Shown here: positions 515-16,983 of the stretch, in pieces
Position numbering within the stretch: position 1 is the first letter of the stretch
How the letters are laid out: each line of letters starts with the position of its first letter
NCBI GenBank assembly: GCA_038217285.1
Contig: JBBQPO010000090.1
Location: forward strand, 1 to 20,024
DNA length: 20,024 bases
Reading direction: 5' to 3'
Source of the DNA: Chthonomonadales bacterium
GTDB lineage: Bacteria; Armatimonadota; Chthonomonadetes; Chthonomonadales; Chthonomonadaceae
Program-made: the position numbers and the translations under genes
Notes under the pieces: model-generated
Database searches by the model: none
The model's input: only the letters and a program-made list of their open reading frames with translations
Told to the model about the DNA's origin: nothing

Positions 515-1444
515 TCATTCTCTCTGAAGGAGCCCGTAATGCCCAAGATCCATGTTATCGTCGAAACCTAGGATGGTCAATCCACCGAACAAATCTTCGA
601 CCCCCCAGCGGGAGGAATGGGAGAAAGAGATCCTGGGCTTTCTGTGGGTTGGCAACGTCGCGTCATACCTTTTGAGAAGGGACGCCATTGCCGTCTGGTG
701 CCGGTAGCTCACCATGACAAGCAATGATAGATTCTCCATTTCCCCTGTAAAATGTTGATTGGGATCCGCGCCATGCTGCAGGAGATAAGACGCCATTGAA
801 AGCCGATCTGTGCTCACCGCACAGAGAAGGGGCGTGGTGACGGAAATACAGTTGAGGCGACCGGTTGCGTTCGGATCGGCACCACGCATCAGCAGCAGCT
901 TGATAGTCGCCATATCGTTGGCCGCGCAAGCTTTTAACAGACACCTATCGAGCTTCATAGGACACGCGCCTTTTTCAAGCAACAGGAGCGCACTGGCACG
1001 GCTGTAGTCAAATTCGGAGGCTTCATCGACGAGCGTGTCTCCAACGATATCACAGACATCTGGTTGTGCCCCTTGATCGAGTAGGAGTTTAACGATCGGA
1101 GTAAGCTTCTCTTGCCTGCGATCATGAAGACCCATGGAGGCTTTAAAAGCTTGGATGAGAGCCGTTGGACGATAGCAAGACGGCTCTGGCCTATGGGTGA
1201 ACAGGCGCTGAAGATAGTCGCGCAGTGATGGCTGAGGCGAATAGGAACAATCCACGGCGTTGGGGGACGCTCCCGCACACAGCGTCTGTCGAACTGCGGC
1301 GACATCTAGTCGGCTGCAGGCGACGATGAGTTCCTGGTTCAGTCGTTGCTGTCGGATCTCACGGTAGACCGACGAGGCAGGGACCACAACCAGAATGGCA
1401 AGAGCGACGAGTACGAGAACGATAGGGATACTTTTACGATTCAT
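515..1444 (-). CDS. Membrane-anchored ankyrin-repeat protein (309 aa)
   Basis: N-terminal hydrophobic segment (IPIVLVLVALAILVVVPA). Several ankyrin-type motifs: IVKLLLDQGAQPD, TIKLLLMRGADPNA, TPLLCAV...MASYLLQHGADPN. Confidence 0.85.
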   Translation of the reverse strand: MNRKSIPIVLVLVALAILVVVPASSVYREIRQQRLNQELIVACSRLDVAAVRQTLCAGASPNAVDCSYSPQPSLRDYLQRLFTHRPEPSCYRPTALIQAFKASMGLHDRRQEKLTPIVKLLLDQGAQPDVCDIVGDTLVDEASEFDYSRASALLLLEKGACPMKLDRCLLKACAANDMATIKLLLMRGADPNATGRLNCISVTTPLLCAVSTDRLSMASYLLQHGADPNQHFTGEMENLSLLVMVSYRHQTAMASLLKRYDATLPTHRKPRISFSHSSRWGVEDLFGGLTILGFDDNMDLGHYGLLQRE

Positions 1445-4095: not shown

Positions 4096-5430
4096 TCAGG
4101 CTTTGTAGATTGGGAGTTTCCAGGGCTTGCGGTATTCGCGGTGGTAGTAGATGCTGTCCTTGCCCGCCTTACCGACGATGTCCATCTTCTCCTTGCTGAA
4201 CTGCACGGACTCGCCCGCTTCGAGGGCGACATTGATCAGATGGCAGGTGATGGTCGTCTGCGCCATGGAGGCCAGGTTCGAGCGCGGCTGCTCGCGTGAC
4301 TTCACGCAGTCCAGCCAGTTCTGCCAGTGGTCGTTGGTGGCGGGAATGCGCTCTTTGGGGATCGGTTCGCCCTTGGGGTCCATGATGGACCATCCCCCGC
4401 GCGAAACCTGCAGCGTCTTGCCGTCCGCACTCACGAACTCCGTGCCGTGGTCCGGCTTTCCGGGCTGATCCCGGCCCGTCTCCCACTGCAGCAGGAAGTC
4501 GGGATCCTTGAACCGCATGATGGCTTCGACGGTGTCGGGGGTGTCGCGGTCGTCGTCCACGAAGGAGAACTTGCCGCCGAAGGCGCAGACCTCGGTCGGC
4601 ATCACCAGATCGGTGCCCTCGCTCATACCGAGCAGGCCGATGTCGATCATATGGACGCCCCAGTCGCCCGTCTTCCCGGTCCCGGTGTTCTTGAACCAGC
4701 GCCAGGCGTTGTGGACATGATTGGCGGCGTAGGGAAAGGCCGCCGCAGGGCCGGTCCACATATCGAAGTCGAGATTGGGCGGCGGAGTGGTCACGATTCC
4801 ACGTCCTGCGCCTCGCTCTTCGACTTTCCAGGCGCGGACTTTGACGATCTTGCCCAGTTTCCCGGACTTGACATAGTTTAGCGCGTTCGTGAAGACGTCC
4901 GTGCTGCGCTGCCAGGTGCCGACCTGAACGATCTTGTTGTAGTGCTTGACGGCGGCCGCCATCGACTTCGCTTCGGTGATATCGTGGGAGATCGGCTTCT
5001 CGCAGTAGGCGTCTTTGCCCGCCTCCACCGCGTTGATCAGGATCAGGGCATGCCAGTGGTCGGGTGTGCCGACGATGACCGCGTCGAGATCCTTGCGCTC
5101 CAGCATCTTGCGGTAGTCGCCGTAGAGGTCGGGCGCTTTGCCATACTTCGCCGTCACGTTCTTGATGTCGTTGGGCATCCGGTTTTTGTCCACGTCGCAC
5201 AGCGCGGCGACCTGCACCTCCGGCTTTTCCATCAGTTTGCCCATATCGACCGCGCCCATGCCGCCGCACCCGATCAGGCCGATGACCAGTTTGTCGTTCG
5301 CGCCTACACGTCGTCGGCGGCTCGTTGCTTCGGCATGGACCGGCAAAATGCCTGCCGCCAGACCTACGCCGACGAGACCCGCTCCCCCGAGTAGCTCCCG
5401 ACGCGACATACTCTCTTTTTCCGTACTCAT
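4096..5430 (-). CDS. Tat-exported Gfo/Idh/MocA family NAD(P)-dependent oxidoreductase (444 aa)
   Basis: Twin-arginine SRRELL plus hydrophobic stretch; Rossmann IGLIGCGGMG; DAVIVGTPDHWHA; YCEKP; VQVGTWQRS; DWGVHMID. GGAGG SD before the ATG. Confidence 0.93.
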   Translation of the reverse strand: MSTEKESMSRRELLGGAGLVGVGLAAGILPVHAEATSRRRRVGANDKLVIGLIGCGGMGAVDMGKLMEKPEVQVAALCDVDKNRMPNDIKNVTAKYGKAPDLYGDYRKMLERKDLDAVIVGTPDHWHALILINAVEAGKDAYCEKPISHDITEAKSMAAAVKHYNKIVQVGTWQRSTDVFTNALNYVKSGKLGKIVKVRAWKVEERGAGRGIVTTPPPNLDFDMWTGPAAAFPYAANHVHNAWRWFKNTGTGKTGDWGVHMIDIGLLGMSEGTDLVMPTEVCAFGGKFSFVDDDRDTPDTVEAIMRFKDPDFLLQWETGRDQPGKPDHGTEFVSADGKTLQVSRGGWSIMDPKGEPIPKERIPATNDHWQNWLDCVKSREQPRSNLASMAQTTITCHLINVALEAGESVQFSKEKMDIVGKAGKDSIYYHREYRKPWKLPIYKA

Positions 5431-7125: not shown

Positions 7126-7154
7126 TTGCATATCGTGGTGGAATATGATATATT
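7126..7154 (+). promoter_or_regulatory. Putative sigma70 promoter TTGCAT-N17-TATATT with extended -10
   Basis: TTGCAT 7126-7131, 17-nt spacer, TG at 7146-7147, TATATT 7149-7154. Lies ~22 nt upstream of the strong SD at 7177. Confidence 0.55.
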
Positions 7155-7191
7155 GAAAGAACCTAATACACATGTGAGGAGGTGATTTGAA

Positions 7192-7443
7192 CTGAAAGAA
7201 AAAGCTGGTCCTGTGGTAATTGCAGTGGTAGTTATCATCGCTGTCCTGCTGATCGGGGGGCTCGGTTGGAAGTTCCTTGGCCCTGGGTCAAAGGATGGCG
7301 GATCCAACCCGTACGCGAATGGACATGCGGCTCCCGGCGGCGCGGGCGGTGGCCCTCCTGGTTCCGGCGGCGCGGGCGGTGGCCCTCCTGGTTCCGGCGG
7401 CCCCGGTTCCGGTGGCCCGAGTGCACCCGGCAGTGGAGGATAG
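7192..7443 (+). CDS. Small single-TM protein with Gly/Pro/Ser-rich tail (83 aa from CTG; 76 aa from GTG 7213)
   Basis: SD AGGAGGTGAT 7177-7186 followed by in-frame CTG at 7192, giving [30 protein letters not shown]... An in-frame TGA at 7183-7185 excludes an earlier start. Tail contains [10 protein letters not shown] repeats. Confidence 0.75.
7334..7401 (+). repeat. 30-bp exact tandem repeat (~2.3 copies) encoding [10 protein letters not shown]
   Basis: CCGGCGGCGCGGGCGGTGGCCCTCCTGGTT at 7334-7363 and 7364-7393, plus a partial copy at 7394-7401. Confidence 0.9.
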
Positions 7444-7514
7444 TCCACGGACGGCACTCTGCCCTCTTCTGTAAACTTACTCAAGTTGTTTTCTTCGAGA
7501 AAGGAGCGACCGAA

Positions 7515-8378
7515 ATGAATCGGCGCAACGTTAAAAGCCAATCCAACGGTGGATTTACTCTGATAGAACTGCTAGTCGTCATCGCTATTATCGCCATCCT
7601 GGCGGCTATTCTCTTCCCTGTGTTCGCACAGGCACGGGAGAAGGCGCGCACCGCCTCCTGCAGCAGCAACGCCCGACAGATGGGGCTTGCCATCAATATG
7701 TACAAACAGGACTACGACGAGCGCTTCCCGTTCGGCGGATGGCGTCCGCCGCCCGGCCCGAACGGCGGTACCGGCACCTGGGACTGGCAGAACTCGACCG
7801 CCCCTTATATCAAAAATAAGGGTGTCTACTTCTGCCCCAGCTCCACCGACGACAACGAGCAGGCCGATCCTACGAGCTGGAGCTGGAACCGCAACCCGGT
7901 AAGCTACCTCTATAACAATCAGCTCGGTCAGAACCGTACTCCGGTTTCCGACGCCGCTGTCACCCAGCCCTCCAACTGCTGGATGGTGCTTGATGGCCAC
8001 TCCGACTGGGGCTGCGATCAGGCCAACACCAACGCCTGCTACGGAACCGACTGGCTTGGTCGCCCGAAGACCATCTGGCTGCTCGAGGATACCACGTTCG
8101 GCTCCGCTGCCTCGCTGGTAACCGGCTGGCTCAGTTGGCAGGGATTCACCTGGGGCCTGCCTCGCCATAACGCCGGCGCCAACGTCTGCTTTGTGGACGG
8201 ACACGTGAAGTGGCAGAAGGTCGCGCCCTTCGATAAAGGCACGGCGTTTAACTCGAACAACAACAATATCATGAAGGGCAGCGGCGGTGCCGACAGCAGC
8301 CTGGAGCAGTTGTACCCCTACAACAAGGTCTGTATTCCGGACCAGAGCAACGCTGGCTGGAAATGGGGCATCAACTAG
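7515..8378 (+). CDS. Prepilin-type N-terminal cleavage/methylation protein with DUF1559-like domain and C-terminal H-X9-DG motif (287 aa)
   Basis: AAGGAG SD at 7501-7506, ATG 7515. [71 protein letters not shown] (H-X9-DG). Confidence 0.95.
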
Positions 8379-8409
8379 ACCTCTCTGCTGAAACCTCAGT
8401 TCGCCTGTG

Positions 8410-8441
8410 ACAGCCTGGAGGAATTCGTTCCTCCAGGCTGT
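8410..8441 (+). terminator. Perfect 14-bp stem hairpin with UUCG loop (terminator or mRNA-stabilising stem-loop)
   Basis: ACAGCCTGGAGGAA-TTCG-TTCCTCCAGGCTGT, 31 nt after the pilin-like stop. No clear poly-U tail. Confidence 0.7.
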
Positions 8442-8487
8442 TCCTCTGCACCGATATTCGGATCGGCCCGTTCGAGAGACCCGACCG

Positions 8488-8515
8488 GGAACTTTTTCTG
8501 CCCGATAAGGGCGTA
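8488..8515 (+). promoter_or_regulatory. Putative ECF-sigma promoter GGAACTT-N17-CGTA
   Basis: GGAACTT 8488-8494, 17-nt spacer, CGTA 8512-8515. Downstream of the hairpin and ~110 nt upstream of the first TPR gene. Confidence 0.45.
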
Positions 8516-8625
8516 TTCTGATTAGGCACCGCACTCGCCTCAGGCAGTTCTCCTTACTCCCTTCGACTTACCTGGGTAGAGTGTGTCCGCCATAAACATC
8601 GATTCAGAGGCACACACTTTTTGAG

Positions 8626-9909
8626 ATGACTATGGAGATCCTTGCAACTTTGGAAACCGCTCCACCGTCCAAGCCACGGACACGCCGCCTGATCGTTCTG
8701 TTCGTCGTTGGGCTGACAGCGATCATTGTCAGTCTCGGAGTGCGCAATAGCACCTGGGCGAAAGAGCGGCGTCTGAAGAACCTCGTCGTGGAAGATCTGG
8801 CTCTTTCCATCCATGATGAACCGAACGATCCCCTCACGTTCCTATACTACGGCTCCGCTCTGCTCAAAGCCAATGATCTGCCGGATAGCGAGCAGGCGTT
8901 TGAACGCGCCACCCAGCTCGATCCCAGGATGGCGCGTGCTTTTCTCGGGCTAGGCAGCGTTCAGTTCCGGCGAGGAGAGCTGCCGGCAGCACAAAAGACG
9001 TTCGAGACGGCGGTGACGCTCGACCCGAAAAGCACCGACGGCTATCTCGGGCTGGCGCAGGTCTACTATCAACAGGGGATGGCGGCGCATGCCGCCGCAC
9101 CCCTCCAAAAAATCGTGGCCCTAGAGCCGAAGAATGCCCCGGCCTGGTATTTTTTGGGTAAGATGTACGGCGAAGCCCACGAATCGGACAAAGCGCTCGA
9201 GGCGCTGCAGAAAGCCACGCAGTACGATCCCAAACAGGGGATCTATTGGCGCGACCTCGGACAACTGGAACGACACTACTCCCGAAATGCCGAGGCGGAG
9301 AAAGCCTTGACAACGGCGCTGCACTACAGTCCCAACGATTCCGTTGGCTACCTGTGGCTCGGCCAGCTCTATGCGCAGATGGGGGATTCGCCGAAGCTGC
9401 GCGGGCAAGCGGAACAGTGTTTCCTCTCAGCCATCGCCCGCGACCCTAAGATGCAAGATGCCTATCTAGGCCTCGGGCAACTGTATCAGCGCAGCAGCAA
9501 CTACTCCGCCGCTGTCACCTATTTCCGTAAGGCGTTCGAACTGGACAACTCCGACTCACAAGCGCTTCTCGCGGAAGGCCAGTGCCTGGTACAACTCGGC
9601 CGGAAGGCCGAAGGCCAACAGATGATTGCCGGCGCACAGGCGCTGGAAACCGCCAAACGGGATCTGGACTACATGCAGAAGCGCATCCTCGCCGAGCCGA
9701 AAACGCGTGAACTCCGCCTCCGTATGGCCCGCCTCTATCGCAAATATGAGAACTATACGGACGCCATCGGCCAGTATCAGGCCTATCAGCGCCTCGGCCC
9801 GGTCGATCCCATTGTCGAAAAAGAGTTGAACGACTACGGTATGGCGCTTCAAAAACAGGGCCTTTTGCGCGGAAACGCTCCTCCTCCCGCCCCAGTAGGG
9901 TCGCAATGA
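8626..9909 (+). CDS. Membrane-anchored tetratricopeptide repeat protein (TPR-1, 427 aa)
   Basis: N-terminal TM (LIVLFVVGLTAIIVSLGV). Many TPR motifs (AFERATQLDP...AFLGLG, AWYFLGKMY, AYLGLGQLY). ATGA overlap with the next gene. Confidence 0.92.
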   Translation: MTMEILATLETAPPSKPRTRRLIVLFVVGLTAIIVSLGVRNSTWAKERRLKNLVVEDLALSIHDEPNDPLTFLYYGSALLKANDLPDSEQAFERATQLDPRMARAFLGLGSVQFRRGELPAAQKTFETAVTLDPKSTDGYLGLAQVYYQQGMAAHAAAPLQKIVALEPKNAPAWYFLGKMYGEAHESDKALEALQKATQYDPKQGIYWRDLGQLERHYSRNAEAEKALTTALHYSPNDSVGYLWLGQLYAQMGDSPKLRGQAEQCFLSAIARDPKMQDAYLGLGQLYQRSSNYSAAVTYFRKAFELDNSDSQALLAEGQCLVQLGRKAEGQQMIAGAQALETAKRDLDYMQKRILAEPKTRELRLRMARLYRKYENYTDAIGQYQAYQRLGPVDPIVEKELNDYGMALQKQGLLRGNAPPPAPVGSQ

Positions 9910-11636
9910 CCGTCCGCAACCGCCTGGTTCTGTTTTTGTTGCTGACGTCTTGCTGCCTCGCGATGGGCTGTAACCGTGTCAAGCCGTCTGTCGCCGGTCC
10001 GCCTGCGAAAGGCAGCCAGGGGCTGCCCCCTAGGAACGGCATGGAACAGTATGCTGTGCCACTTCCGCCAGGTACGCAACCGTGGTTCGAAGATCGAGCG
10101 GTCGCCCTTGGTATCGATTTTAAGATGGGACACAACGGCAAGACGCCGCTGGATGTCCTCGAAATGATGGGGCCGGGCTGCGCTGTTTGTGACCTCGACG
10201 GGGATGGACACGCCGATATTCTGATCGTCGGGGAGACCGGGACGACGCCTGGAGGCCGCTGCGCTCTCTACCGCAACAACGGCGATGGCACCTTTAAAGA
10301 CGTGACCTCCGGAAGCGGACTGGAAGCGCCGGGGCTCTATATGGGCGTCGCGATAGCAGACATCGACAATGACGGCAAACCTGACATCCTGATTACCGGC
10401 TACGGCGTCGTGAAACTGTTCCGCAATCTCGGCCACTGCAAATTTCAGGACATTACAAAAGGCTCCGGCCTGGAAGCGAAGTCTCCGACAGACTGGGCCA
10501 CGAGCGCAGCCTTCGCCGACATCGACCGTGACGGTTTGGTGGATCTCTATGTCGGTCGGTATGTGATCTTCAATGACAAATCGCTCAAGTTCTGTGACTA
10601 TGGCATTCCCGCCTCCTGCGGCCCGATCTTCTACGATCCCCAGATCGGCAGTCTCTATAAGAACCTGGGACACGGCAAATTCCGAGATATTTCTCGGGCG
10701 TGGGGGCTGGACGCCAAAGGGAAGTGTCTCGGAGTGGCCTTCGCCGATGTCAACAACGATGGCTGGCCGGATCTCTACCTGGCCAACGACGAGATGCCAG
10801 GCGATCTCTTTATAAACGACAGGGGTAAAGGGTTTCACAACACCGGCACTGAGGCCGGCGTGGCTCTCTCCGGCAGCGCGCAGATGCAGGGCGCCATGGG
10901 CGTCGATTTCGGGGACTATAACCGGGACGGCAATCTCGATCTGTTCGTCACGACCTACGAGTTCGAGGCGAAGAGCCTCTATCGTAATAAAGGACAGGCG
11001 TTGTTCGGTATCGTCAGCGCAGAGACGGGCATCGGGCTGCCGACAGCCCCGTTTGTCGGGTTCGGGACGAAGTTCATCGATGTGCAGAACCGGGGATGGC
11101 TCGACATCGCTATCGCGAACGGCCATATCCACGACAATCAGGAGAAGATTGACAAACTGGGCCACTACAAGCAGCCGATGCAGCTCTTGATGAATGAGGA
11201 CGGCAAGACGTTTATAGATCGCACACGCGAGGCGGGGCCGGGCTTCACGACGCCCGGTGTCGGGCGCGGACTGGCCCTCGGCGACCTGAACGACGACGGC
11301 CTGGAAGACATCGTCATCACCGACCTGGAAGGTCCGGTGCGTGTGTTGATGAACCACTCGCCAGGGCATGGCAACTGGCTGCGCATTGGCCTGGAAGGCA
11401 CGAAAAGCAACCGGATGGGCCTGGGAGCACGGATCACGTTGACAGCCGGAGGCCAGACATGGATCAAAGAGGCGACGACGGGAGGAAGCTACCTCTCTGC
11501 CAGCGACCCTCGCGTCCATTTCGGCCTGGGCAGCCTGAACATAGTCGATAAGGTCGAAGTCCGCTGGCCGAGCGGCAGACAGAGCGTCGTCCGGAACCCG
11601 CATGTTCCCGGCGACCTGATGATACGAGAACCATAA
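9906..11636 (+). CDS. FG-GAP/VCBS-repeat + C-terminal ASPIC/UnbV domain (CRTAC1-family) lipoprotein (576 aa)
   Basis: Lipobox-like LAMGC. Repeated DxDxDGxxD motifs (DLDGDGHAD, DIDNDGKPD, DIDRDGLVD, DVNNDGWPD, DYNRDGNLD, DLNDDGLED). C-terminal SNRMGLGARI...GGSYLSASDPRVHFGLG...VRWPSG. Confidence 0.92.
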   Translation: MTVRNRLVLFLLLTSCCLAMGCNRVKPSVAGPPAKGSQGLPPRNGMEQYAVPLPPGTQPWFEDRAVALGIDFKMGHNGKTPLDVLEMMGPGCAVCDLDGDGHADILIVGETGTTPGGRCALYRNNGDGTFKDVTSGSGLEAPGLYMGVAIADIDNDGKPDILITGYGVVKLFRNLGHCKFQDITKGSGLEAKSPTDWATSAAFADIDRDGLVDLYVGRYVIFNDKSLKFCDYGIPASCGPIFYDPQIGSLYKNLGHGKFRDISRAWGLDAKGKCLGVAFADVNNDGWPDLYLANDEMPGDLFINDRGKGFHNTGTEAGVALSGSAQMQGAMGVDFGDYNRDGNLDLFVTTYEFEAKSLYRNKGQALFGIVSAETGIGLPTAPFVGFGTKFIDVQNRGWLDIAIANGHIHDNQEKIDKLGHYKQPMQLLMNEDGKTFIDRTREAGPGFTTPGVGRGLALGDLNDDGLEDIVITDLEGPVRVLMNHSPGHGNWLRIGLEGTKSNRMGLGARITLTAGGQTWIKEATTGGSYLSASDPRVHFGLGSLNIVDKVEVRWPSGRQSVVRNPHVPGDLMIREP

Positions 11637-12889
11637 TGACACCACTGCCTTCTTCCCGTAATCTGATTTTAGGACGTCTACTGCGGATCTGCGCCCTGCT
11701 GGCTCTGCCGGTAATCGTTCTCTATTTCGTCGCGCTGGCCGGACTGGCTTCGCATGATAACTGGGTCGACAAAACCTCTCTTTCCGATCTGCAGGCGCAG
11801 GTCGAAAAGAATCCGGACGATGCGGAGATGACTTTTAAGCTGGCCCATCGTATGGTCGGAGAGGGGAATTCGCGCGGCGCGTTTGTGCTGATGCAGCGCC
11901 TCGTGAAGCAACAGCCGAACTCGGTCACCTATTGGGAAGGCTATGGACGCTGTGCGGCTGCCAATAACGATATGCTGGAAGCGGTGCGCGCCTACCGACG
12001 TGTGCTGGAACTGAACCCCCGTGCGGCTCAGGCGCATGCCTATCTGGGCCAGATCGAAGTCAAGGCGGGGCTGACGACCGAGGGCCTCGTGGAGATCGAT
12101 ACGGCACGCAAGATCGATCCCAAGGTAGGGATAAACCTCGCCGTCTGGGCGGAGGCGCTGGTAAAAAATAAACGCCTGCAGGAGGCGTACGATGCCATCG
12201 TGACGTCTATCAGTATCGACCCGACGCAGGACAGCCTCTATCCGCTTTTCGGTCGCCTCGCGCCTCAGGTCGGCAAAGTGGACAATGCCCGGATGCTGCT
12301 CTGGCGGCGAGTCAGCGTCTCCGCCATGTATCCGACGGGGGAGGCACGGTCTGCGCTGGTACGCCTGACCCTGTCGCAGTCGCATGACGCGAAGACTCTT
12401 GCCGAGGACGAGGAGCTGGCCCGCGATGCCGTGCCGGGCAAGGTTGCGGATTTCAATGCGGCTCTGGCGGAGGTGCTGTTGGTGAAGAACGACCTGCGAG
12501 GAGCGCGAAAGACCCTGCTGGAAGGTCTGACTTATGGAAAAGACGATCCGGCCTGTCTGCGACTCCTGGTAAAGATAGCAGAGAAACAGGGTAAGACGGC
12601 GGAAGTCGCGCAGTGGCGCGCAAAACTTCCTTTAGAGCAGAGGGAAAGCGCCCAGGTCGTTGCCTTGAGGCAGTCCGTCGCGGCCGCGCCCGAAGACAAT
12701 ACGAAACGCATGGCGTTGGCACAGGCGCTTTACAAGGATGCGGAGTATGGCCCTGCCGCGGAGACCTGCCTGGAGATACTGCAGCGGCTTCCGAACGATG
12801 CGACCGCGTCGGCGCTGCTGGCCAAATCCCGCGAAGAGGCCATTCATAAACTCGCGCAGTCTCCCGAGGTTTTGGAAGGCAAGAACTGA
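11636..12889 (+). CDS. Membrane-anchored TPR protein (TPR-2, 417 aa)
   Basis: TAATG overlap with the upstream stop. N-terminal TM (ICALLALPVIVLYFVALAGL). TPR motifs (AVRAYRRVLELNPRAAQAHAYLG). Confidence 0.88.
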   Translation: MTPLPSSRNLILGRLLRICALLALPVIVLYFVALAGLASHDNWVDKTSLSDLQAQVEKNPDDAEMTFKLAHRMVGEGNSRGAFVLMQRLVKQQPNSVTYWEGYGRCAAANNDMLEAVRAYRRVLELNPRAAQAHAYLGQIEVKAGLTTEGLVEIDTARKIDPKVGINLAVWAEALVKNKRLQEAYDAIVTSISIDPTQDSLYPLFGRLAPQVGKVDNARMLLWRRVSVSAMYPTGEARSALVRLTLSQSHDAKTLAEDEELARDAVPGKVADFNAALAEVLLVKNDLRGARKTLLEGLTYGKDDPACLRLLVKIAEKQGKTAEVAQWRAKLPLEQRESAQVVALRQSVAAAPEDNTKRMALAQALYKDAEYGPAAETCLEILQRLPNDATASALLAKSREEAIHKLAQSPEVLEGKN

Positions 12890-12910
12890 CTTGCAGAGAG
12901 CAGCAGGAAA

Positions 12911-14041
12911 ATGGTGCGAGTGAACAGGATCCATGCCGTGGCGCTTCTGCTGACCTTGTTGTCGGTGGCTCTGCTGCTGCTGGCGGGTTGTACACACCGC
13001 GACACCCCTACGACGGTAAAGCCCGCTTCGGATGAGAGAAGCGAATTTGTCGGCAATAAGGCATGCGCGGAGTGCCATACCGCCGAATTCAAGTCCCACC
13101 AGGGCAGCCGACACGATCGTTCGCTGCAGGCCGCCACGCGTGCCGCCCTGGGTAGCCTGACGCCTGACCTGGGAGTCGTTCCCCTGGCAGGCTATGCGAT
13201 GGCTGAACGAGACGGCGCCTTGACCCTGGAACGCCAGGGATTGGGTTCTAAGAAGCCGGAGGCGCAGTCGCTTCAACTGGTGCTCGGCTCCGGCAAACTT
13301 GGCATGACGTTCGTCACTCTGCTTGGGGACGATACGCTCATGGAGACCCGGATGAGTTTCTTTCCGCCCTATCGGCTGTGGGATATCACACCCGGACAGG
13401 AGATCAAGATTCCGGGCGACGCTCCGTTCGGGCGGGCGCATTCGGGCAGGGAAGCGCACAACTGTCTGGGCTGCCATGCGACCACGGTGCCCTCGCATCT
13501 TCTGCAGCTTGCGCCACGCTTCTATGGCGTGGGATGCGAAGCGTGTCATGGGGCGGGGAACGCGCATATAGAGGCGATGCGGGCGAAAAAGTACGGCGAG
13601 CCGCACATGGAGCATCTGGCTTCGAAGTCGCCGACGCAGATCGACGAACTGTGCGGCAGGTGCCATCGTACCGCCAGAGATGTAGACCTCCAGAGCCCGG
13701 AAGTCAACCTTACCCACCGCTTTCAACCCTATGCGCTGCAGAGGAGCGCCTGCCGTACCAAAAGTAATGAGCCGCTTTCGTGTCTGAGCTGCCACAATGC
13801 GCATACCGACGTCAGCACCGACCTGAAAGCCTATGAGAGAGCCTGTCTGAACTGCCACGCCGCGCCCGGAACCGCGCGCCCGACGCGGATCGACCCGACC
13901 GCCCGGCAGGCGAGGGTCTGTCCTGTGAACAAGACGAGCGGCTGTGTTGGATGCCATATGCGGCCCAAACCAGCCTTCACCCAGACGACTATTCCTGCAC
14001 AGATGGCGGATCATCTTATCTCCATCGAGAAGAAGAAGTGA
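12911..14041 (+). CDS. Multiheme c-type cytochrome lipoprotein, 7 CxxCH motifs (cytochrome c554-like N-terminus; 376 aa)
   Basis: Lipobox LLAGC. Motifs CAECH, CLGCH, CEACH, CGRCH, CLSCH, CLNCH, CVGCH(M). FVGNKACAECH...SRH start and terminal DHLI. Confidence 0.9.
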   Translation: MVRVNRIHAVALLLTLLSVALLLLAGCTHRDTPTTVKPASDERSEFVGNKACAECHTAEFKSHQGSRHDRSLQAATRAALGSLTPDLGVVPLAGYAMAERDGALTLERQGLGSKKPEAQSLQLVLGSGKLGMTFVTLLGDDTLMETRMSFFPPYRLWDITPGQEIKIPGDAPFGRAHSGREAHNCLGCHATTVPSHLLQLAPRFYGVGCEACHGAGNAHIEAMRAKKYGEPHMEHLASKSPTQIDELCGRCHRTARDVDLQSPEVNLTHRFQPYALQRSACRTKSNEPLSCLSCHNAHTDVSTDLKAYERACLNCHAAPGTARPTRIDPTARQARVCPVNKTSGCVGCHMRPKPAFTQTTIPAQMADHLISIEKKK

Positions 14042-14042
14042 A

Positions 14043-15290
14043 TTGACGAATACGTCCCCGATCGACTCATCCCCTTCCCTGCCGCCTGCCGACCGTCGCG
14101 TTGGACGGATTCTGGTCGTCCTGCTGGTCTGCGCGGCGCTGGGCAGCGTGGTCTGGTGGTACGGCCCCGGTAACAGCGCGAACCGCTATAGCCGGATGTC
14201 TCTGCTAGATCTCAACCACACGCTGAATCGCGATCCGCACGACCGCGCTGCGGCGCGGATGCTAGCCCTGCGCCTCGCGCGGTCCGGCGATGCGGAGCTG
14301 GCCGAGCCAGCCCTGCGAAACTCCCTGCTTCTGAGTCCGAACGATCCCGAAGTGATGACGGGCCTCGGCGAGCTGATGATGGCGAAAAGGAGCTATCCGG
14401 AGGCGTTTCAACTGCTGAAGTCGGCGGCGGAACGGTTCCCGCACTATGGGCTGGGGCGCTCCGCCCTGGGGCGTCTCTACATGAAAAAAGGCTCCTATCT
14501 CCATGCCTCCACGGAGTTCGAGGCGGTGGTTGAACAGGATAAGAGTGCGGACGACGCCTGGTATCAGTTGGCGGTCTGCTACCTGGAGATGCAACAGTCG
14601 GCGAAGGCGCAGGCGGCGATCGATGCCGCCCTGCATCTGCAGTCGAACGAGCCGCACTATCTGGCGCTCAAAGGCAGTGTAGATGTCGCGGTCGGCAATG
14701 CCGGAGCCGGCATCGACGAAACCAAACGCGCCTCCGAGCTTGCGCCGCGGGATGTTCGGATCAACTCTACGCTCGTCAACCTGCTGCTGGCCCAGCATCG
14801 AAACGACGCCGACCTCGATCTCGCCGAGAAGTCCATAGGGAAGCTGGAACAGATGAACCCGGACTACCCTCTGCTACCCTATCAGCGTGGGGAGCTCGAA
14901 CGTCTGCGGCAGCATTGGGAACCCGCCGCGCACTATCTGGAGAGAGCGCTCCAGACGACGCCGCAACAGGATGAGGTCTACTTTTCGCTCAGTCAGGTCT
15001 ACCGCCGCCTGAACAGGATCCCTGACGCGGAGCGACTCATGAAACTCTATACCCGGCGACAGGACATACATCGCAAAATGGATGCCGTCCGAATCGATCT
15101 CGGCGCTCACACGGAGAATGCGATGCTCTACGCGAAGCTGGCCGACCTTCAGATGCAGATGGGGGATCGTCCTGCTGCCATAAGCAGCGTGAAGTCGGGT
15201 CTGATGATCGATCCGAAGAACGCTCTTTTGCAGAAATGGCTGCGTATTCTGGACCCGTCGACAAAAGTTGGGACAACGCCACCGCAATGA
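14043..15290 (+). CDS. Membrane-anchored TPR protein (TPR-3, ~415 aa)
   Basis: In-frame TTG at 14043, 1 nt after the cytochrome stop (the ORF-track start 13944 overlaps the cytochrome). TM ILVVLLVCAALGSVVWWYG. TPR motifs (AWYQLAVCY, VYFSLSQVYRRL). ATGA overlap with the next gene. Start approximate. Confidence 0.88.
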   Translation: MTNTSPIDSSPSLPPADRRVGRILVVLLVCAALGSVVWWYGPGNSANRYSRMSLLDLNHTLNRDPHDRAAARMLALRLARSGDAELAEPALRNSLLLSPNDPEVMTGLGELMMAKRSYPEAFQLLKSAAERFPHYGLGRSALGRLYMKKGSYLHASTEFEAVVEQDKSADDAWYQLAVCYLEMQQSAKAQAAIDAALHLQSNEPHYLALKGSVDVAVGNAGAGIDETKRASELAPRDVRINSTLVNLLLAQHRNDADLDLAEKSIGKLEQMNPDYPLLPYQRGELERLRQHWEPAAHYLERALQTTPQQDEVYFSLSQVYRRLNRIPDAERLMKLYTRRQDIHRKMDAVRIDLGAHTENAMLYAKLADLQMQMGDRPAAISSVKSGLMIDPKNALLQKWLRILDPSTKVGTTPPQ

Positions 15291-16930
15291 GACATCCCTC
15301 GTTAAGGTGGTTTCTGCTGCCCTGCCTGCTCTTCGCGGGATGCACCGGGAGGGTGAGCCCTCCGGGACGCATCGCCCCGATTCCTGTGCCGCCCACGTCT
15401 GCGGCCTCCTCTTCCCCGATCCGTTTCGAAAATGGGACTCAGAAGGCAGGGATCGACTTCTCGCTCGGGAATGCCGGACGGTCGCCGCTGAATATTCTGG
15501 AAACCTCGGGAGGCGGATGTGCCTTCCTCGACTACGACTCGGACGGCTGGCCCGATATTCTTCTGGTGGGGCCGCATCACGTCGCTCTCTATCATAACGA
15601 ACGCAACGGCACCTTCAAGAATGTGACGGCGCAGAGCGGGCTGGCGGCGGATCGAACCTGGATGGGCTGTACGGTGGGCGACTACGACGGGGACGGCAGA
15701 CCCGATATCTTCCTCACGGGCTACGGCTGTTATGCCCTCTATCGCAATCTGGGCGGAGGCAAATTCCAGGATGTGACGCGACAGAGCGGAATCGCCGGGC
15801 TGGAGTGGAGCATGAGCGCGGCCTTCGCCGATTTTACCGGCTCGGGACGGCTTGACCTGTTCGTCTCGCAGTATGTCCATTTCGACGCTCGTTCCAATCA
15901 GATCTGTGAGGTAGGCCGGACGCGCTCGGCCTGTGGCCCAGAAGTCTATGAAGCCCTGTCCGGCAAGCTGTTTCGCAATCTAGGCCAGGGCAAATTTCAG
16001 GCGGCGCCCTGGAAGGACACTGGCAAGACGTGGGGCGTTCTGGCCTCCGATCTGCTCGGCACAGGGCATCCTGCGCTCTACGAAGCCAACGATATGATGC
16101 CGGGGGATCTCTGGACCCGGCAGGGCAAAGGCTGGAAAAATGTCGGCCCGGACAACGGTACCGCTTATGATGGGCAGGGCCACTTGCAGGGCGGGATGGG
16201 CGTGGATTCGGGCGACTACAGAAACGAAGGGCGGTTGAGCCTGGTCGTCACGACCTACTTTGCGCAGCCGATCAGCCTCTACCACAACGATGGCAATGGC
16301 CTGTTCACCGTGGCGAGCGGCCCCAGCAATCTGGGCCCGCCAACGACGCCCTTCGTAAAATTCGGCGTCGGCTTCACCGACCTCGACAACGACGGTTGGC
16401 TCGATCTCATGCTGACGAACGGTCATGTCCGTGACAACGTGCATACCTTCGATTCGGCACAGAATTATGCCCAGCCGCTGCAGGTCTTCCACAACATGCA
16501 GGGACAGTTCGACGACGGTTCGGCAGTGTCAGGCATTGCGAACCTGCGCGCTGTGGGGCGGGGGATGGCGTTCTCGGATTTCGATCACGATGGCAAGGTG
16601 GATGTTCTGGTCTGCAATCTGGAAGGAAAGGCGATGCTGCTGCACAACGTCACGCCGACGGCGAACCACTGGCTGGAAGTGCGGCTTCAGTCCAAAGGCA
16701 GCAACCGGTTCGGCCTGGGCGCTCTGGTGACCGCGAAGGTCGGGAGCCTCTCGATGCTGCGTGAAATCCGCACCAGTGGCAGCGTCCTCTCCGCCTCCGA
16801 CCCTGTCGCGCATTTCGGCCTTGGCTCCGCCACCGGCCCCGTCGCCCTTTCCATTCGCTGGCCCGACGGCAAAAAACAGCGACTGTCCGTCTCCAAAATA
16901 GACGCCTCCCTCACCGTCTCTGCCCCCTGA
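15287..16930 (+). CDS. Second FG-GAP/VCBS + ASPIC/UnbV (CRTAC1-family) lipoprotein (547 aa)
   Basis: Start at ATG 15287 (ATGA overlap) gives MRHPSLRWFLLPCLLFAGC with a lipobox. DYDSDGWPD, DYDGDGRPD, DLDNDGWLD, DFDHDGKVD. C-terminal SNRFGLGA...SGSVLSASDPVAHFGLG...IRWPDG. Paralog of 9906-11636. Confidence 0.92.
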   Translation: MRHPSLRWFLLPCLLFAGCTGRVSPPGRIAPIPVPPTSAASSSPIRFENGTQKAGIDFSLGNAGRSPLNILETSGGGCAFLDYDSDGWPDILLVGPHHVALYHNERNGTFKNVTAQSGLAADRTWMGCTVGDYDGDGRPDIFLTGYGCYALYRNLGGGKFQDVTRQSGIAGLEWSMSAAFADFTGSGRLDLFVSQYVHFDARSNQICEVGRTRSACGPEVYEALSGKLFRNLGQGKFQAAPWKDTGKTWGVLASDLLGTGHPALYEANDMMPGDLWTRQGKGWKNVGPDNGTAYDGQGHLQGGMGVDSGDYRNEGRLSLVVTTYFAQPISLYHNDGNGLFTVASGPSNLGPPTTPFVKFGVGFTDLDNDGWLDLMLTNGHVRDNVHTFDSAQNYAQPLQVFHNMQGQFDDGSAVSGIANLRAVGRGMAFSDFDHDGKVDVLVCNLEGKAMLLHNVTPTANHWLEVRLQSKGSNRFGLGALVTAKVGSLSMLREIRTSGSVLSASDPVAHFGLGSATGPVALSIRWPDGKKQRLSVSKIDASLTVSAP

Positions 16931-16983
16931 CCCGTCGTGCTTAAAGGGCAGGCGCAGGCCCTCCTTGGGGCTGGCATTTCCGC

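What the first reader, a model, noticed from the sequence alone, without database searches (positions are those of the whole stretch)
7192..16930. Candidate uncharacterised envelope system: pilin-like DUF1559 + three [TPR + lipoprotein] modules (ASPIC/UnbV propeller, multiheme cytochrome, ASPIC/UnbV propeller)
Seen: eight co-oriented genes, all with export or membrane signals (TM, prepilin leader, lipoboxes). The last six alternate strictly TPR/CRTAC1-like, TPR/7-heme cytochrome, TPR/CRTAC1-like, with overlaps or tiny gaps (ATGA 9906-9909, TAATG 11634-11638, 21 nt, 1 nt, ATGA 15287-15290), suggesting translational coupling. Established: each family is common in Planctomycetota/Armatimonadota/Acidobacteriota but largely lacks a functional assignment; FG-GAP-type repeats form Ca2+-binding beta-propellers. 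Inference: a stoichiometric extracytoplasmic complex that couples a variable pilin-like recognition subunit to redox chemistry, e.g. oxidative substrate processing or surface electron transfer. I know of no characterised system with this arrangement, but I could not check the literature.
Basis: partly seen in the sequence, partly recalled or inferred. Interest (0 to 1): 0.8.

Follow-up and report, generated by a model that had tools for sequence, protein, structure and literature searches.

The report
Conserved pilin-TPR-propeller-cytochrome envelope gene block
An Armatimonadota bacterium keeps eight envelope genes together (a pilin-like protein, three membrane-anchored TPR scaffolds, two calcium propellers and a seven-haem cytochrome), and the same building blocks recur, often fused, in other phyla, which gives several large families of unknown function a reproducible context but not yet a function.

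Summary
The eight genes, their families, the seven CXXCH motifs and the overlaps or tiny gaps are as described.

The block is not a chance arrangement. The same seven-gene order recurs in two same-genus genomes and in another genus. Shorter DUF1559-TPR-CRTAC1 cassettes, with or without the cytochrome, recur many times in the window's own genome and in relatives. TPR+CRTAC1+cytochrome also sit together in Acidobacteriota, and less often in Planctomycetota.

Each "TPR + partner" pair also exists elsewhere as one fused protein in the same N-to-C order. That supports physical pairing.

The cytochrome models confidently as a shortened OcwA/MccA-type multihaem protein.

Function is inferred, not shown. 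My best reading is a membrane-tethered periplasmic redox unit. A conserved hairpin after the pilin gene suggests separate dosage for the pilin.

I found no description in the literature. Earlier notes of this scan reported a similar module in planctomycetes. I could confirm that only partly.

The parts
7213..7446 (+). g1: small membrane protein with one hydrophobic helix, an NPYAN motif and a Gly/Pro-rich tail.
   Evidence: Sequence and translation. No Pfam or NCBIfam hit. A like ORF (helix, NPYAN, G/P tail) sits directly upstream of the DUF1559 orthologue in another genus (L036 4248-4577). Only 2 of 62 DUF1559 genes in the own genome have such a neighbour. It holds a 30-nt tandem repeat at 7334-7401.
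7515..8378 (+). g2: prepilin-type DUF1559 / H-X9-DG protein (pseudopilin-like)
   Evidence: PF07963 N_methyl (E 1.2e-8), PF07596 (47.8 bits, cut-off 23.3), TIGR02532 and TIGR04294. Residues 14-38 are invariant across 20 cassette-linked relatives.
8409..8442 (+). 15-bp GC-rich hairpin after the DUF1559 gene, terminator- or attenuator-like
   Evidence: Fold of 8376-8480: -44.5 kcal/mol, z -4.75, 0 of 200 shuffles as good. A hairpin at the same place, with a different sequence, occurs in L036 (z -5.99, followed by a U-rich run) and in L035. The simple terminator scan did not call it because the U tract is weak.
8626..9909 (+). g3 TPRa: N-terminal membrane helix plus a periplasmic TPR domain
   Evidence: Pfam TPR families; N-terminal hydrophobic stretch; stop overlaps the start of g4 (ATGA).
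9906..11636 (+). g4 CRTAC1a: lipoprotein, FG-GAP calcium propeller plus UnbV_ASPIC domain
   Evidence: FG-GAP_3 4e-46 and UnbV_ASPIC 1.9e-20. Matches human CRTAC1 9etn at E 2.6e-18 over residues 427-559. DxDxDG columns are conserved in 29 relatives.
11636..12889 (+). g5 TPRb: membrane-anchored TPR protein
   Evidence: Pfam TPR families. The orthologue sits in the same position in L015/L035, L016 and L017/L036.
12911..14041 (+). g6: heptahaem c-type cytochrome lipoprotein with an OcwA/MccA-like fold
   Evidence: 7 CXXCH, all conserved in 16 and 102 relatives. AF2 model pLDDT 91.7. OcwA 6i5b: Foldseek E 2.9e-7, and VIA Z 15.5, rmsd 3.4 A, 268 residues aligned.
14043..15290 (+). g7 TPRc: membrane-anchored TPR protein (TTG start 1 nt after the g6 stop)
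   Evidence: Pfam TPR families; sequence. It is 43% identical over residues 24-355 to the N-terminal half of the 983-aa fused protein P0121.
15287..16930 (+). g8 CRTAC1b: lipoprotein, FG-GAP propeller plus UnbV_ASPIC
   Evidence: FG-GAP_3 8.6e-40 and UnbV_ASPIC 3.2e-15. 41% identical to g4. 61% identical to the C-terminal half of P0121.

Best explanation
This is a real, conserved envelope gene block of a Chthonomonadales-type Armatimonadota bacterium. It is built from three 'tether + partner' pairs.

Each TPR protein is held in the inner membrane by one N-terminal helix. It acts as a periplasmic scaffold for the lipoprotein encoded next to it: a CRTAC1-type calcium beta-propeller (twice) or a seven-haem cytochrome (once). 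A pilin-like DUF1559 protein and a tiny membrane protein are encoded just upstream. They are probably expressed at their own level.

The most likely working is as follows. The OcwA-like cytochrome, which appears to have fewer conserved distal ligands than haems, is a membrane-tethered electron-transfer or reductase unit. The TPR scaffolds keep it next to the two propellers. Electrons then reach, or leave, a substrate or partner bound by the propellers in the periplasm.

Odds for each step:
- Conserved module: shown.
- TPR-partner pairing: strongly inferred from fusions, about 0.8.
- Redox coupling between cytochrome and propellers: inferred, about 0.35.
- Role of the pilin-like protein as a delivery or anchoring fibre of a type II secretion or type IV pilus-like machine encoded elsewhere: inferred, about 0.3.
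For: Synteny:
- The full order DUF1559-TPR-CRTAC1-TPR-CYT-TPR-CRTAC1 occurs in G002, in G003 (contig-limited) and in G011, which is a different genus.
- None of the window's flanking genes is kept there, so the block itself is the conserved unit.

Recurrence:
- 12 of 20 cytochrome loci in relatives carry CRTAC1 in the fetched piece, 14 carry TPR and 10 carry DUF1559.
- Own-genome cassettes lie on C34, C132, C133, C170 (two), C218 and C249.
- Adjacency counts are 9 of 18 and 9 of 18.
- In G019, 5 of 9 UnbV loci have a Pfam DUF1559 hit within 5 kb, or 6 of 9 with the tblastn hit.

Other phyla:
- In Acidobacteriota, 4 of 7 listed loci have CRTAC1 beside the cytochrome: L042, L043, L044 and L050.

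Fusions:
- About 76 of the 120 best longer relatives of CRTAC1b carry TPR Pfam families (my count of the listing). CRTAC1 lies C-terminal in every example printed except P0188 and the mixed P0158.
- P0121 fuses orthologues of g7 and g8.
- 16 of the best 150 relatives of the cytochrome profile are 554-654 aa with the cytochrome at the C-terminus. 5 of 6 tested have N-terminal TPR.
- 13 of 15 longer relatives carry TPR, and 11 of 13 distant loci are single CYT-TPR frames.
- In the own genome, C160 and L050 show [multihaem-TPR fusion] followed by CRTAC1.

Cytochrome:
- Model pLDDT is 91.7. OcwA scores Z 15.5, OmhA 12.6 and MccA 10.0.
- Only H68, H219, H298 and H368 are invariant outside the motifs, and M350 is nearly invariant, for seven haems.
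- OcwA has two five-coordinate haems and reduces nitrite, hydroxylamine and iron oxides (PMC6703420, passages read).

Machinery for prepilins exists elsewhere in the genome: one prepilin peptidase, three secretins and several T2SSF genes.
Against: - Most CRTAC1 cassettes lack a cytochrome: 15 of 18 loci in the own genome. The propellers therefore do not generally need one.
- 6 of 20 cytochrome loci in relatives have none of the partner families nearby. Some sit beside DUF1501, a thioredoxin/DsbD-like protein or other genes instead.
- In one Planctomycetota genome, 0 of 18 CRTAC1 loci had a DUF1559 hit and only 4 had TPR.
- Among 13 full-length planctomycete cytochrome loci, only 2 had CRTAC1.
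- No quinol dehydrogenase or other electron entry point is encoded in the window.
- The genome has few multihaem genes: 7 ORFs with 4 or more CXXCH, plus the one on C178.
- No conserved redox motif was seen in the CRTAC1 alignment. The Cys in GxGC is replaced in 9 of 29 sequences.
- The TPR part of a TPR-cytochrome fusion is not detectably similar to TPRb (E 0.039).
- P0121 rests on one 5-kb contig and could be a frameshift artefact.
- Haem ligation was inferred from conservation only.
- There are no expression data.
Confidence: 0.45

Rival explanations
1. Generic, non-redox surface or periplasm capture cassette. DUF1559 pseudopilin plus TPR-tethered CRTAC1 propellers bind a polymer or ligand (calcium-dependent binding). 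The cytochrome is only one of several interchangeable passengers that use the same TPR tether, with no electron flow to the propellers.
For: - The cassette without a cytochrome is the common form.
- TPR is fused to very different partners: CRTAC1, cytochromes, and a GDSL-lipase-like region in L155.
- Ankyrin replaces TPR in 4 of 120 fusions.
- The flanks of the cassettes vary: a LacI regulator, a lactonase, glycoside hydrolases.
- An earlier scan note (e1-4275412) describes changing enzyme partners. I did not check it.
Against: - The cytochrome-CRTAC1 adjacency recurs in two phyla with different gene orders. That is hard to explain for an unrelated passenger.
- [multihaem-TPR fusion] followed by CRTAC1 recurs independently in C160 and L050.
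- A published study also notes CRTAC1-family genes inside clusters of haem-bearing hydrazine-synthase homologues (PMC12758564, passages read).
Confidence: 0.3
2. Extracellular or outer-surface electron transfer. The OcwA-like cytochrome is a terminal reductase for insoluble or external acceptors (or for iron assimilation). The pilin-like protein and the propellers serve as its surface anchor.
For: - The closest solved folds are cell-surface terminal reductases of Gram-positive metal reducers: OcwA Z 15.5 and OmhA Z 12.6 (PMC6703420).
- The near-identical DNA occurs in sediment metagenome runs. One run holds 0.94 of the sampled words and may be the source sample.
Against: - The window has no porin-cytochrome conduit, no periplasmic decahaem and no quinol oxidase gene.
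- The genome holds few multihaem genes.
- The protein is a lipoprotein of a bacterium with secretins, so probably a diderm, and nothing shows surface exposure.
- It lacks two of OcwA's nine haems and its long C-terminal helices.
Confidence: 0.12
3. Periplasmic detoxifying reductase (nitrite, hydroxylamine or another small oxidant) that merely shares an operon with structural envelope proteins.
For: - OcwA and its NrfA/MccA relatives reduce small N- or S-oxyanions.
- Conserved distal ligands are fewer than haems.
- Stand-alone homologues sit beside methionine sulfoxide reductase and thioredoxin/DsbD-like genes (L026, L025).
Against: - There is no CXXCK or other known catalytic signature.
- TPR tethering and CRTAC1 adjacency are not explained.
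- No assay exists.
Confidence: 0.1
4. The adjacency has no functional meaning: it is a product of local duplication of abundant paralogous families.
For: The families are very large in these genomes: about 60-68 DUF1559 loci and 18 CRTAC1 loci. Cassettes could spread by duplication.
Against: - Order and tight junctions are kept across genera at 44-67% protein identity while the flanks change.
- The same pairs are fused into single proteins in other phyla.
Confidence: 0.03

Closest known systems
OcwA of Thermincola potens (PDB 6i5b), with OmhA (6qvm) and MccA (4rkm): NrfA-related multihaem reductases
   Same: It is the best structural match of g6: Z 15.5, rmsd 3.4 A, 268 residues, 24% identity, and Foldseek E 2.9e-7. 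g6 also has a beta-sheet domain between haem 1 and haem 2 (strands at residues 72-178). OcwA and MccA share such a domain (PMC6703420). Conserved distal ligands are fewer than haems, as in OcwA with its two open haems.
   Different: - Seven haems, not nine.
- No long C-terminal helix bundle.
- A lipoprotein, probably of a diderm, not a wall protein of a Gram-positive.
- Encoded with TPR tethers, CRTAC1 propellers and a pseudopilin-like gene.
- No biochemical data.
Database proteins with fused architectures: TPR-CRTAC1 ('FG-GAP-like repeat-containing protein', 'CRTAC1 family protein', JGI label 'enediyne biosynthesis protein E4') and cytochrome c554-TPR / TPR-cytochrome ('tetratricopeptide repeat protein')
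   Same: They have the same domains in the same N-to-C order as the gene pairs g3-g4, g7-g8 and g5-g6.
   Different: Here the pairs are split into a membrane-anchored TPR protein and a separately lipid-anchored partner, and three pairs are joined in one block. The fused proteins are themselves uncharacterised, and their names are automatic labels.
Gene clusters of hydrazine-synthase homologues in non-anammox bacteria that enclose a CRTAC1-family FG-GAP gene (PMC12758564)
   Same: This is a published case of a CRTAC1-family gene linked with periplasmic multihaem (c554-domain) proteins (passages read).
   Different: The window has no HZS alpha or beta-gamma homologue. Its propellers carry no haem motif, and its cytochrome is OcwA-like.
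Type II secretion pseudopilins and type IV pilins (GspG, PilA) and the DUF1559 / H-X9-DG expansion of Planctomycetota
   Same: g2 has the prepilin leader and the invariant N-terminal helix. A prepilin peptidase, secretins and platform proteins are present in the genome. DUF1559 is described as the largest paralogue group of unknown function in Planctopirus, 68 copies (PMC10632474, passage read).
   Different: No assembly ATPase, platform or secretin lies in the window. The globular part could not be modelled (pLDDT 54). The function is unknown.
Earlier notes of this scan on planctomycete modules (e1-4097231, e1-4275412, e1-5270706)
   Same: They describe heptahaem-TPR-CRTAC1-DUF1559 or DUF1559-lipoprotein-TPR-CRTAC1 modules, and they also name OcwA/OmhA as the nearest structures.
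   Different: They concern other phyla and other DNA, and they are unchecked AI notes. My own test in Planctomycetota found the full set only in L145, and TPR-TPR-CRTAC1 next to a divergent cytochrome in L155, out of 13 loci. It found none in 18 CRTAC1 loci of G041.

Membership tests
Type IV pilin / T2SS pseudopilin superfamily (g2) | N-terminal prepilin cleavage/methylation motif followed by a hydrophobic helix with Glu at +5 | tested here: met
   PF07963 at 34.6 bits (cut-off 21.2) and TIGR02532 at 32.3 bits (cut-off 16.3). [10 protein letters not shown]... is invariant in 20 relatives.
Type IV pilin / T2SS pseudopilin superfamily (g2) | Alpha-beta pilin fold of the globular domain | tested here: inconclusive
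   The AF2 model has mean pLDDT 54.4 and only the N-terminal helices are confident. No fold search was run on it.
Type IV pilin / T2SS pseudopilin superfamily (g2) | Prepilin peptidase and assembly machinery available | tested here: met
   Own genome: PF01478 1 match, PF00263 3 matches, and PF00482 15 matches in about 8 frames. None lies in the window.
DUF1559 / H-X9-DG family (g2) | SBP_bac_10 region and the C-terminal H-X9-DG motif | tested here: met
   PF07596 at 47.8 bits (cut-off 23.3) and TIGR04294 at 26.6 bits (cut-off 19). H218, D228, G229 and H230 are conserved.
CRTAC1 / ASPIC-UnbV family (g4, g8) | FG-GAP-type repeats followed by a C-terminal UnbV_ASPIC domain | tested here: met
   Both proteins score above the Pfam cut-offs for PF13517, PF01839 and PF07593. 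g4 matches human CRTAC1 9etn at E 2.6e-18 over residues 427-559 only.
CRTAC1 / ASPIC-UnbV family (g4, g8) | Calcium-binding DxDxDG loops | tested here: met
   D96, D100, G101, D104 and further D/G columns are invariant or nearly so in 29 sequences. Calcium binding itself was not tested.
OcwA / NrfA-related multihaem cytochromes (g6) | Shared haem-domain fold with conserved CXXCH motifs | tested here: met
   Z 15.5 to 6i5b, 12.6 to 6qvm and 10.0 to 4rkm. All 7 motifs are conserved.
OcwA / NrfA-related multihaem cytochromes (g6) | Nine haems and a C-terminal three-helix bundle (OcwA proper) | tested here: not met
   There are 7 CXXCH. No helix longer than 12 residues follows residue 190 in the model. 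The alignment covers OcwA residues 42-432.
OcwA / NrfA-related multihaem cytochromes (g6) | Five-coordinate (open) catalytic haem(s) | not testable with these tools
   The only lead is that four His are invariant outside the motifs and one Met is nearly invariant, for seven haems. No haem-loaded model or spectroscopy is available.
MtrCAB-type porin-cytochrome conduit | Outer-membrane beta-barrel plus periplasmic and surface decahaem cytochromes encoded together | tested here: not met
   None of the 8 genes or the 9 flanking ORFs scanned has such a domain.
Hydrazine-synthase-like clusters with a CRTAC1 gene (PMC12758564) | Homologues of the HZS alpha and beta-gamma subunits (haem-bearing propeller proteins) flanking the CRTAC1 gene | tested here: not met
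   The propellers here have 0 CXXCH. The only haem protein is OcwA-like.
Type II secretion / type IV pilus biogenesis operon | Assembly ATPase, platform protein and secretin next to the pilin genes | tested here: not met
   No such Pfam family occurs in the window.

The most novel reading that the evidence does not exclude
The DUF1559-TPR-CRTAC1 cassette is a previously unrecognised, cross-phylum envelope machine. In this reading, pseudopilin-like fibres hand captured material to membrane-tethered calcium propellers. In the cytochrome-bearing version seen here, an OcwA-like seven-haem reductase carries out redox chemistry on that material, or passes electrons outward. That would be a pilus-coupled periplasmic redox and capture system with no characterised counterpart, and it would give first functions to DUF1559, to bacterial CRTAC1 and to the TPR-cytochrome fusions.
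Probability: 0.2. Interest if true: 0.85.

Novelty: new variant of a known kind. Interest (0 to 1): 0.58.

Why it matters
DUF1559 pseudopilin-like proteins, bacterial CRTAC1/UnbV propellers and cytochrome c554-TPR proteins are each very large families with no assigned function. Their size is shown by three counts:
- about 60 DUF1559 copies in this genome;
- 5,976 longer CRTAC1 relatives at E<=1e-20 among the candidates scored;
- 1,223 cytochrome representatives at E<=1e-30.

A gene block that ties them together, is conserved between genera and is echoed by fusions in other phyla gives concrete, cheap experiments. Examples are pairwise binding of each TPR protein with its neighbour, spectroscopy of a seven-haem OcwA relative, and knock-outs in cultured carriers.

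If the redox reading holds, it would describe a new way of holding a multihaem reductase at the membrane in aerobic, saccharolytic soil and sediment bacteria that are not known as electroactive.

Tried and rejected
- **Complex prediction.** CRTAC1a (residues 50-576) with DUF1559 (36-287), each with my own alignment: no answer, score 0.00. This is neither support nor evidence against binding.
- **Expression.** No RNA holder was listed for window 7150-16950.
- **DUF1559 structure.** The model had pLDDT 54.4 and was unusable.
- **Selenocysteine lead from earlier notes.** Among 121 Planctomycetota genomes searched with P0122, I counted 7 hits flagged '1 TGA' in the rows listed. I fetched and inspected six. 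In all six the TGA lies at the C-terminal end of the CRTAC1 homology, so it is an ordinary stop. This says nothing about a redox-active residue.
- **Earlier findings by sequence.** The look-up with CRTAC1a returned an unrelated Poribacteria note. There are no notes on this genome.
- **My GC-based gene caller.**
  - A first version picked antisense shadow ORFs and was replaced.
  - The replacement fails on loci of about 50% GC (L027, L028, L044, L046, L145, L150, L153, L154), so their gene content was read from tblastn only.
- **Flanking genes of the window.** These are an ankyrin protein, DUF5722, a TAT-signal Gfo/Idh/MocA oxidoreductase, GT2, a TylF methyltransferase and PAP2. None is conserved next to the orthologous blocks, so I leave them out of the system.
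- **Mapping OcwA's His-His distal motifs onto g6.** The profile search aligned only short stretches.
- **Literature.** Searches for DUF1559 with pilin, DUF1559 alone, UnbV/ASPIC, multiheme with tetratricopeptide and FG-GAP, CRTAC1 with bacteria, and Armatimonad with multiheme cytochrome found no description of this arrangement. Supplements were not read.

Full report
**What is there.** The window is one whole 20,024-base contig (C90) of a 6.2-Mb assembly in 459 contigs.

On the + strand between 7.2 and 16.9 kb lie eight co-oriented genes:
- g1, a small membrane protein with a Gly/Pro-rich tail, 7213-7446. The first standard in-frame start is GTG at 7213.
- g2, a prepilin-type DUF1559 protein, 7515-8378.
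- TPRa, 8626-9909.
- CRTAC1a, 9906-11636.
- TPRb, 11636-12889.
- A cytochrome, 12911-14041.
- TPRc, 14043-15290 (TTG start).
- CRTAC1b, 15287-16930.

The junctions are as reported: a 4-nt ATGA overlap, a 1-nt TAATG overlap, a 21-nt gap, a 1-nt gap and a second ATGA overlap. Pfam and NCBIfam confirm every family above its curated cut-off. The cytochrome has seven CXXCH motifs.

Export signals were read by eye from the N-termini; no predictor was run. They are lipobox-like motifs in both propellers and the cytochrome, one hydrophobic helix in each TPR protein, and the prepilin helix in g2.

**Who carries it.** Names attached by public sources to close relatives of the cytochrome, and to contigs with the same gene order, are Chthonomonadaceae, Chthonomonadales and 'Chthonomonas sp.' of the Armatimonadota. 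The genome has secretins, a prepilin peptidase and several T2SSF platform genes. A diderm envelope and pilus or pseudopilus machinery are therefore plausible.

**Is the arrangement conserved?** Yes.
- The cytochrome was found in 14 of 41 related genomes including the window's own. By family that is 12 of 24 in its own family, 0 of 2 and 1 of 14 in two sister families.
- I fetched 20 loci around these hits and mapped the window's eight proteins on them.
- The complete order DUF1559-TPRa-CRTAC1a-TPRb-CYT-TPRc-CRTAC1b is present in G002. It is present in G003 up to the contig end, and in G011, which belongs to another genus. Public copies of two of these contigs show the same order (L035, L036).
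- Shorter versions occur: DUF1559-TPR-CYT-CRTAC1 in L021, L022 and L023, and DUF1559-TPR-CRTAC1-CYT in L018, L024 and L030.
- Of the 20 loci, 12 carry CRTAC1, 14 carry TPR and 10 carry DUF1559. Six carry none of the three (L019, L025-L028, L031).
- None of the window's flanking genes is found next to the orthologous blocks, so the block itself is the conserved unit.
- A small ORF with the same design as g1 (helix, NPYAN, G/P-rich tail) precedes the DUF1559 gene in G011. Only 2 of 62 DUF1559 genes in the own genome have such a neighbour.

**A multi-copy cassette.** The window's own genome holds 18 CRTAC1 loci and 62-68 DUF1559 loci.
- DUF1559-TPR-CRTAC1 cassettes lie on contigs C34, C132, C133, C170 (two), C218 and C249. 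TPR-CRTAC1 pairs lie on C160, C219, C417 and C453.
- Nine of 18 CRTAC1 loci have a DUF1559 hit within 5 kb, against about 0.10 expected per locus. Nine of 18 have a tblastn TPR hit within 500 nt, against about 0.012 expected.
- In the nearly closed genome G019, 5 of 9 UnbV_ASPIC loci have a Pfam DUF1559 hit within 5 kb. The count is 6 of 9 with the tblastn hit seen in L032.
- Paralogous cassettes and related genomes are not independent, so the binomial tails overstate the case. The direction is nonetheless clear.
- Only three CRTAC1 loci in the own genome sit with a multihaem gene: the two in the window and C160. The cytochrome is therefore an accessory of a subset of cassettes.

**Other phyla.** A pattern scan of one genome per species returned 80 loci.
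- Apart from Armatimonadota, the full-length relatives at 31-34% identity are from Acidobacteriota. In 4 of the 7 Acidobacteriota loci listed (L042, L043, L044, L050) the cytochrome lies beside CRTAC1 and TPR genes, without DUF1559.
- In 251 sampled Planctomycetota genomes the cytochrome profile hit 30 at E<=1e-20.
- Of 13 full-length planctomycete loci fetched, 9 had a DUF1559 hit within the 20-kb piece but only 2 had CRTAC1. L145 has DUF1559 x2-CRTAC1-TPR with a divergent cytochrome. L155 has TPR-TPR-CRTAC1 divergent from the cytochrome.
- In one planctomycete genome (G041), none of 18 CRTAC1 loci had DUF1559 nearby and 4 had TPR.
- The tight module is therefore well supported in Armatimonadota and Acidobacteriota, and only loosely in the planctomycetes I sampled.

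**Fusions (Rosetta-stone evidence).**
- Among longer relatives of CRTAC1b, 5,976 scored E<=1e-20 among the candidates examined. Of the 120 best, about 76 carry TPR Pfam families by my count of the listing, and 4 carry ankyrin repeats instead.
- Where I located the domains, CRTAC1 lies in the C-terminal half behind about 390 residues. Five of the 120 have the opposite order.
- P0121 (983 aa) joins an orthologue of TPRc (43% identity over residues 24-355, including the membrane helix) to an orthologue of CRTAC1b (61%). It rests on one short contig, so an assembly artefact cannot be excluded. The many distant fusions do not depend on it.
- For the cytochrome, the exhaustive profile search found 1,223 representatives at E<=1e-30. 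Sixteen of the best 150 are 554-654 aa with the cytochrome at the C-terminus, and 5 of 6 tested have TPR in front. That is the order of g5-g6.
- More distant relatives show the reverse order, cytochrome then TPR. This holds for 13 of 15 longer relatives and for 11 of 13 loci checked as single frames. The other 2 of the 15 are fused to different beta-propellers.
- On C160 in the own genome and in L050, a multihaem-TPR fusion is followed directly by CRTAC1.
- Together these results make physical pairing of each TPR protein with its neighbour the simplest reading, and they place the TPR between cytochrome and propeller.
- A caveat: the TPR part of one TPR-cytochrome fusion shows no significant similarity to TPRb. 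The parallel is therefore one of architecture, not shown orthology.

**The cytochrome.**
- All seven CXXCH motifs and the lipobox Cys are conserved in 16 and in 102 relatives.
- The AlphaFold2 model is confident (pLDDT 91.7, pTM 0.83) and has a beta-sheet domain between the first and second haem motifs.
- Foldseek ranks OcwA first (E 2.9e-7). The second-look aligner gives OcwA Z 15.5 (rmsd 3.4 A, 268 residues), OmhA 12.6, MccA 10.0, and NrfA and c554 about 6.
- According to the passages I read in PMC6703420, OcwA is a nine-haem terminal reductase with two five-coordinate haems and one His-Met haem. It shares a beta-sheet domain with MccA, and it reduces nitrite and hydroxylamine as well as iron oxides.
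- g6 lacks two of the nine haems and the long C-terminal helices, so I do not file it as OcwA proper.
- Outside the motifs only four His are invariant and one Met is nearly so, for seven haems. This hints at one or two open haems but does not show them.

**The propellers and the pilin-like protein.**
- The 29-sequence CRTAC1 alignment shows conserved calcium-loop Asp/Gly columns, a probable disulphide pair (C230, C238) and an ANGH motif. It shows no conserved redox motif.
- The DUF1559 proteins share an invariant N-terminal helix and the H-X9-DG end, with a highly variable middle.
- The DUF1559 gene is followed by a strong hairpin (z -4.75). A hairpin of different sequence occupies the same spot in two orthologous loci, once with a U-rich tail.
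- I read this as separate dosage of the pilin-like protein, as is usual for major pilin genes. That comparison is recalled, not tested.

**How it most likely works.**
- Shown: a conserved block made of recurrent parts.
- Strongly inferred: TPR proteins anchored by one helix hold the lipoprotein encoded beside them.
- Inferred with moderate to low confidence: the OcwA-like cytochrome exchanges electrons with something bound by the two propellers, and the DUF1559 protein is a fibre subunit that delivers material or anchors the assembly.
- Against a general redox role: the many cytochrome-free cassettes, the cytochrome homologues that sit beside unrelated genes (DUF1501 in L026 and L040, thioredoxin/DsbD-like in L025), the lack of an electron entry gene in the window, and the small multihaem complement of the genome.

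**Literature and earlier notes.**
- My searches found no description of this arrangement.
- The nearest published observation is a CRTAC1-family gene inside clusters of hydrazine-synthase homologues with c554 domains (PMC12758564, passages read).
- DUF1559 is mentioned as the largest paralogue family of unknown function in Planctopirus (PMC10632474).
- One study notes 'multiheme cytochromes of unknown function' in hot-spring Armatimonadota (PMC11788075).
- Earlier AI notes of this scan describe similar modules in planctomycetes. I treated them as leads and could confirm them only in part.

**Verdict.** The modular reading is supported and sharpened by fusions. The functional reading remains open. 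This is a new variant among membrane-associated multihaem systems, and possibly something further from anything known.

Noticed in passing
window 8409-8442; L036 5519-5660; L035 420-445: A strong GC-rich hairpin directly follows the DUF1559 gene in three orthologous loci. Its sequence differs between them, and in L036 a U-rich run follows it. It is terminator- or attenuator-like.
   Followed up: partly
window 7334-7401: An exact 30-nt tandem repeat (2.3 copies) lies inside the small g1 gene and duplicates a [10 protein letters not shown] stretch of its Gly/Pro-rich tail.
   Followed up: partly
window 515-1444 (-); G000 C218 6246-7793 (L119): Ankyrin-repeat proteins lie near two CRTAC1 cassettes. 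In addition, 4 of the 120 best longer CRTAC1 relatives are ankyrin-CRTAC1 fusions. Ankyrin may be an alternative scaffold to TPR.
   Followed up: no
window 4096-5430 (-); G000 C22 4649-6091 (L160): Two Gfo/Idh/MocA oxidoreductases with twin-arginine-type N-termini were seen. One is 1.7 kb from the block. The other lies directly beside a gene for an 890-aa protein with four CXXCH motifs, one c554 domain and TPR repeats. Exported dehydrogenases could be electron donors for such cytochromes.
   Followed up: no
L026 9124-10575; L040 1126-2541: Stand-alone homologues of the heptahaem cytochrome are followed by DUF1501 genes in two related genomes. In L026 a methionine sulfoxide reductase gene follows as well.
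   Followed up: no
G000 C17 (L123 2783-5786): One CRTAC1 paralogue lies directly downstream of a type II/IV secretion ATPase (PF00437) and of ABC-transporter genes.
   Followed up: no
G000 C83 2674-8519 (L158); C55 (L159 4758-10001): There are two operons that each begin with a pentahaem protein of about 250 aa followed by a protein of about 1,030-1,060 aa. By gene order and size they look like alternative complex III. This was not tested with Pfam.
   Followed up: no
G265:C105:62945-64015: A full-length planctomycete homologue of the cytochrome carries one in-frame TGA. It is either a pseudogene or a recoding event. I did not examine it.
   Followed up: no
G000 C178 (L002 1372-3525, -): A paralogous seven-CXXCH cytochrome sits in a 718-aa frame with a long N-terminal extension that has no Pfam hit.
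   Followed up: partly
PDB copy, chain 6r2q_A: The best profile hit in the solved-structure search is a 333-aa multihaem chain labelled 'Cystathionine beta-synthase'. The label looks wrong for that chain.
   Followed up: no
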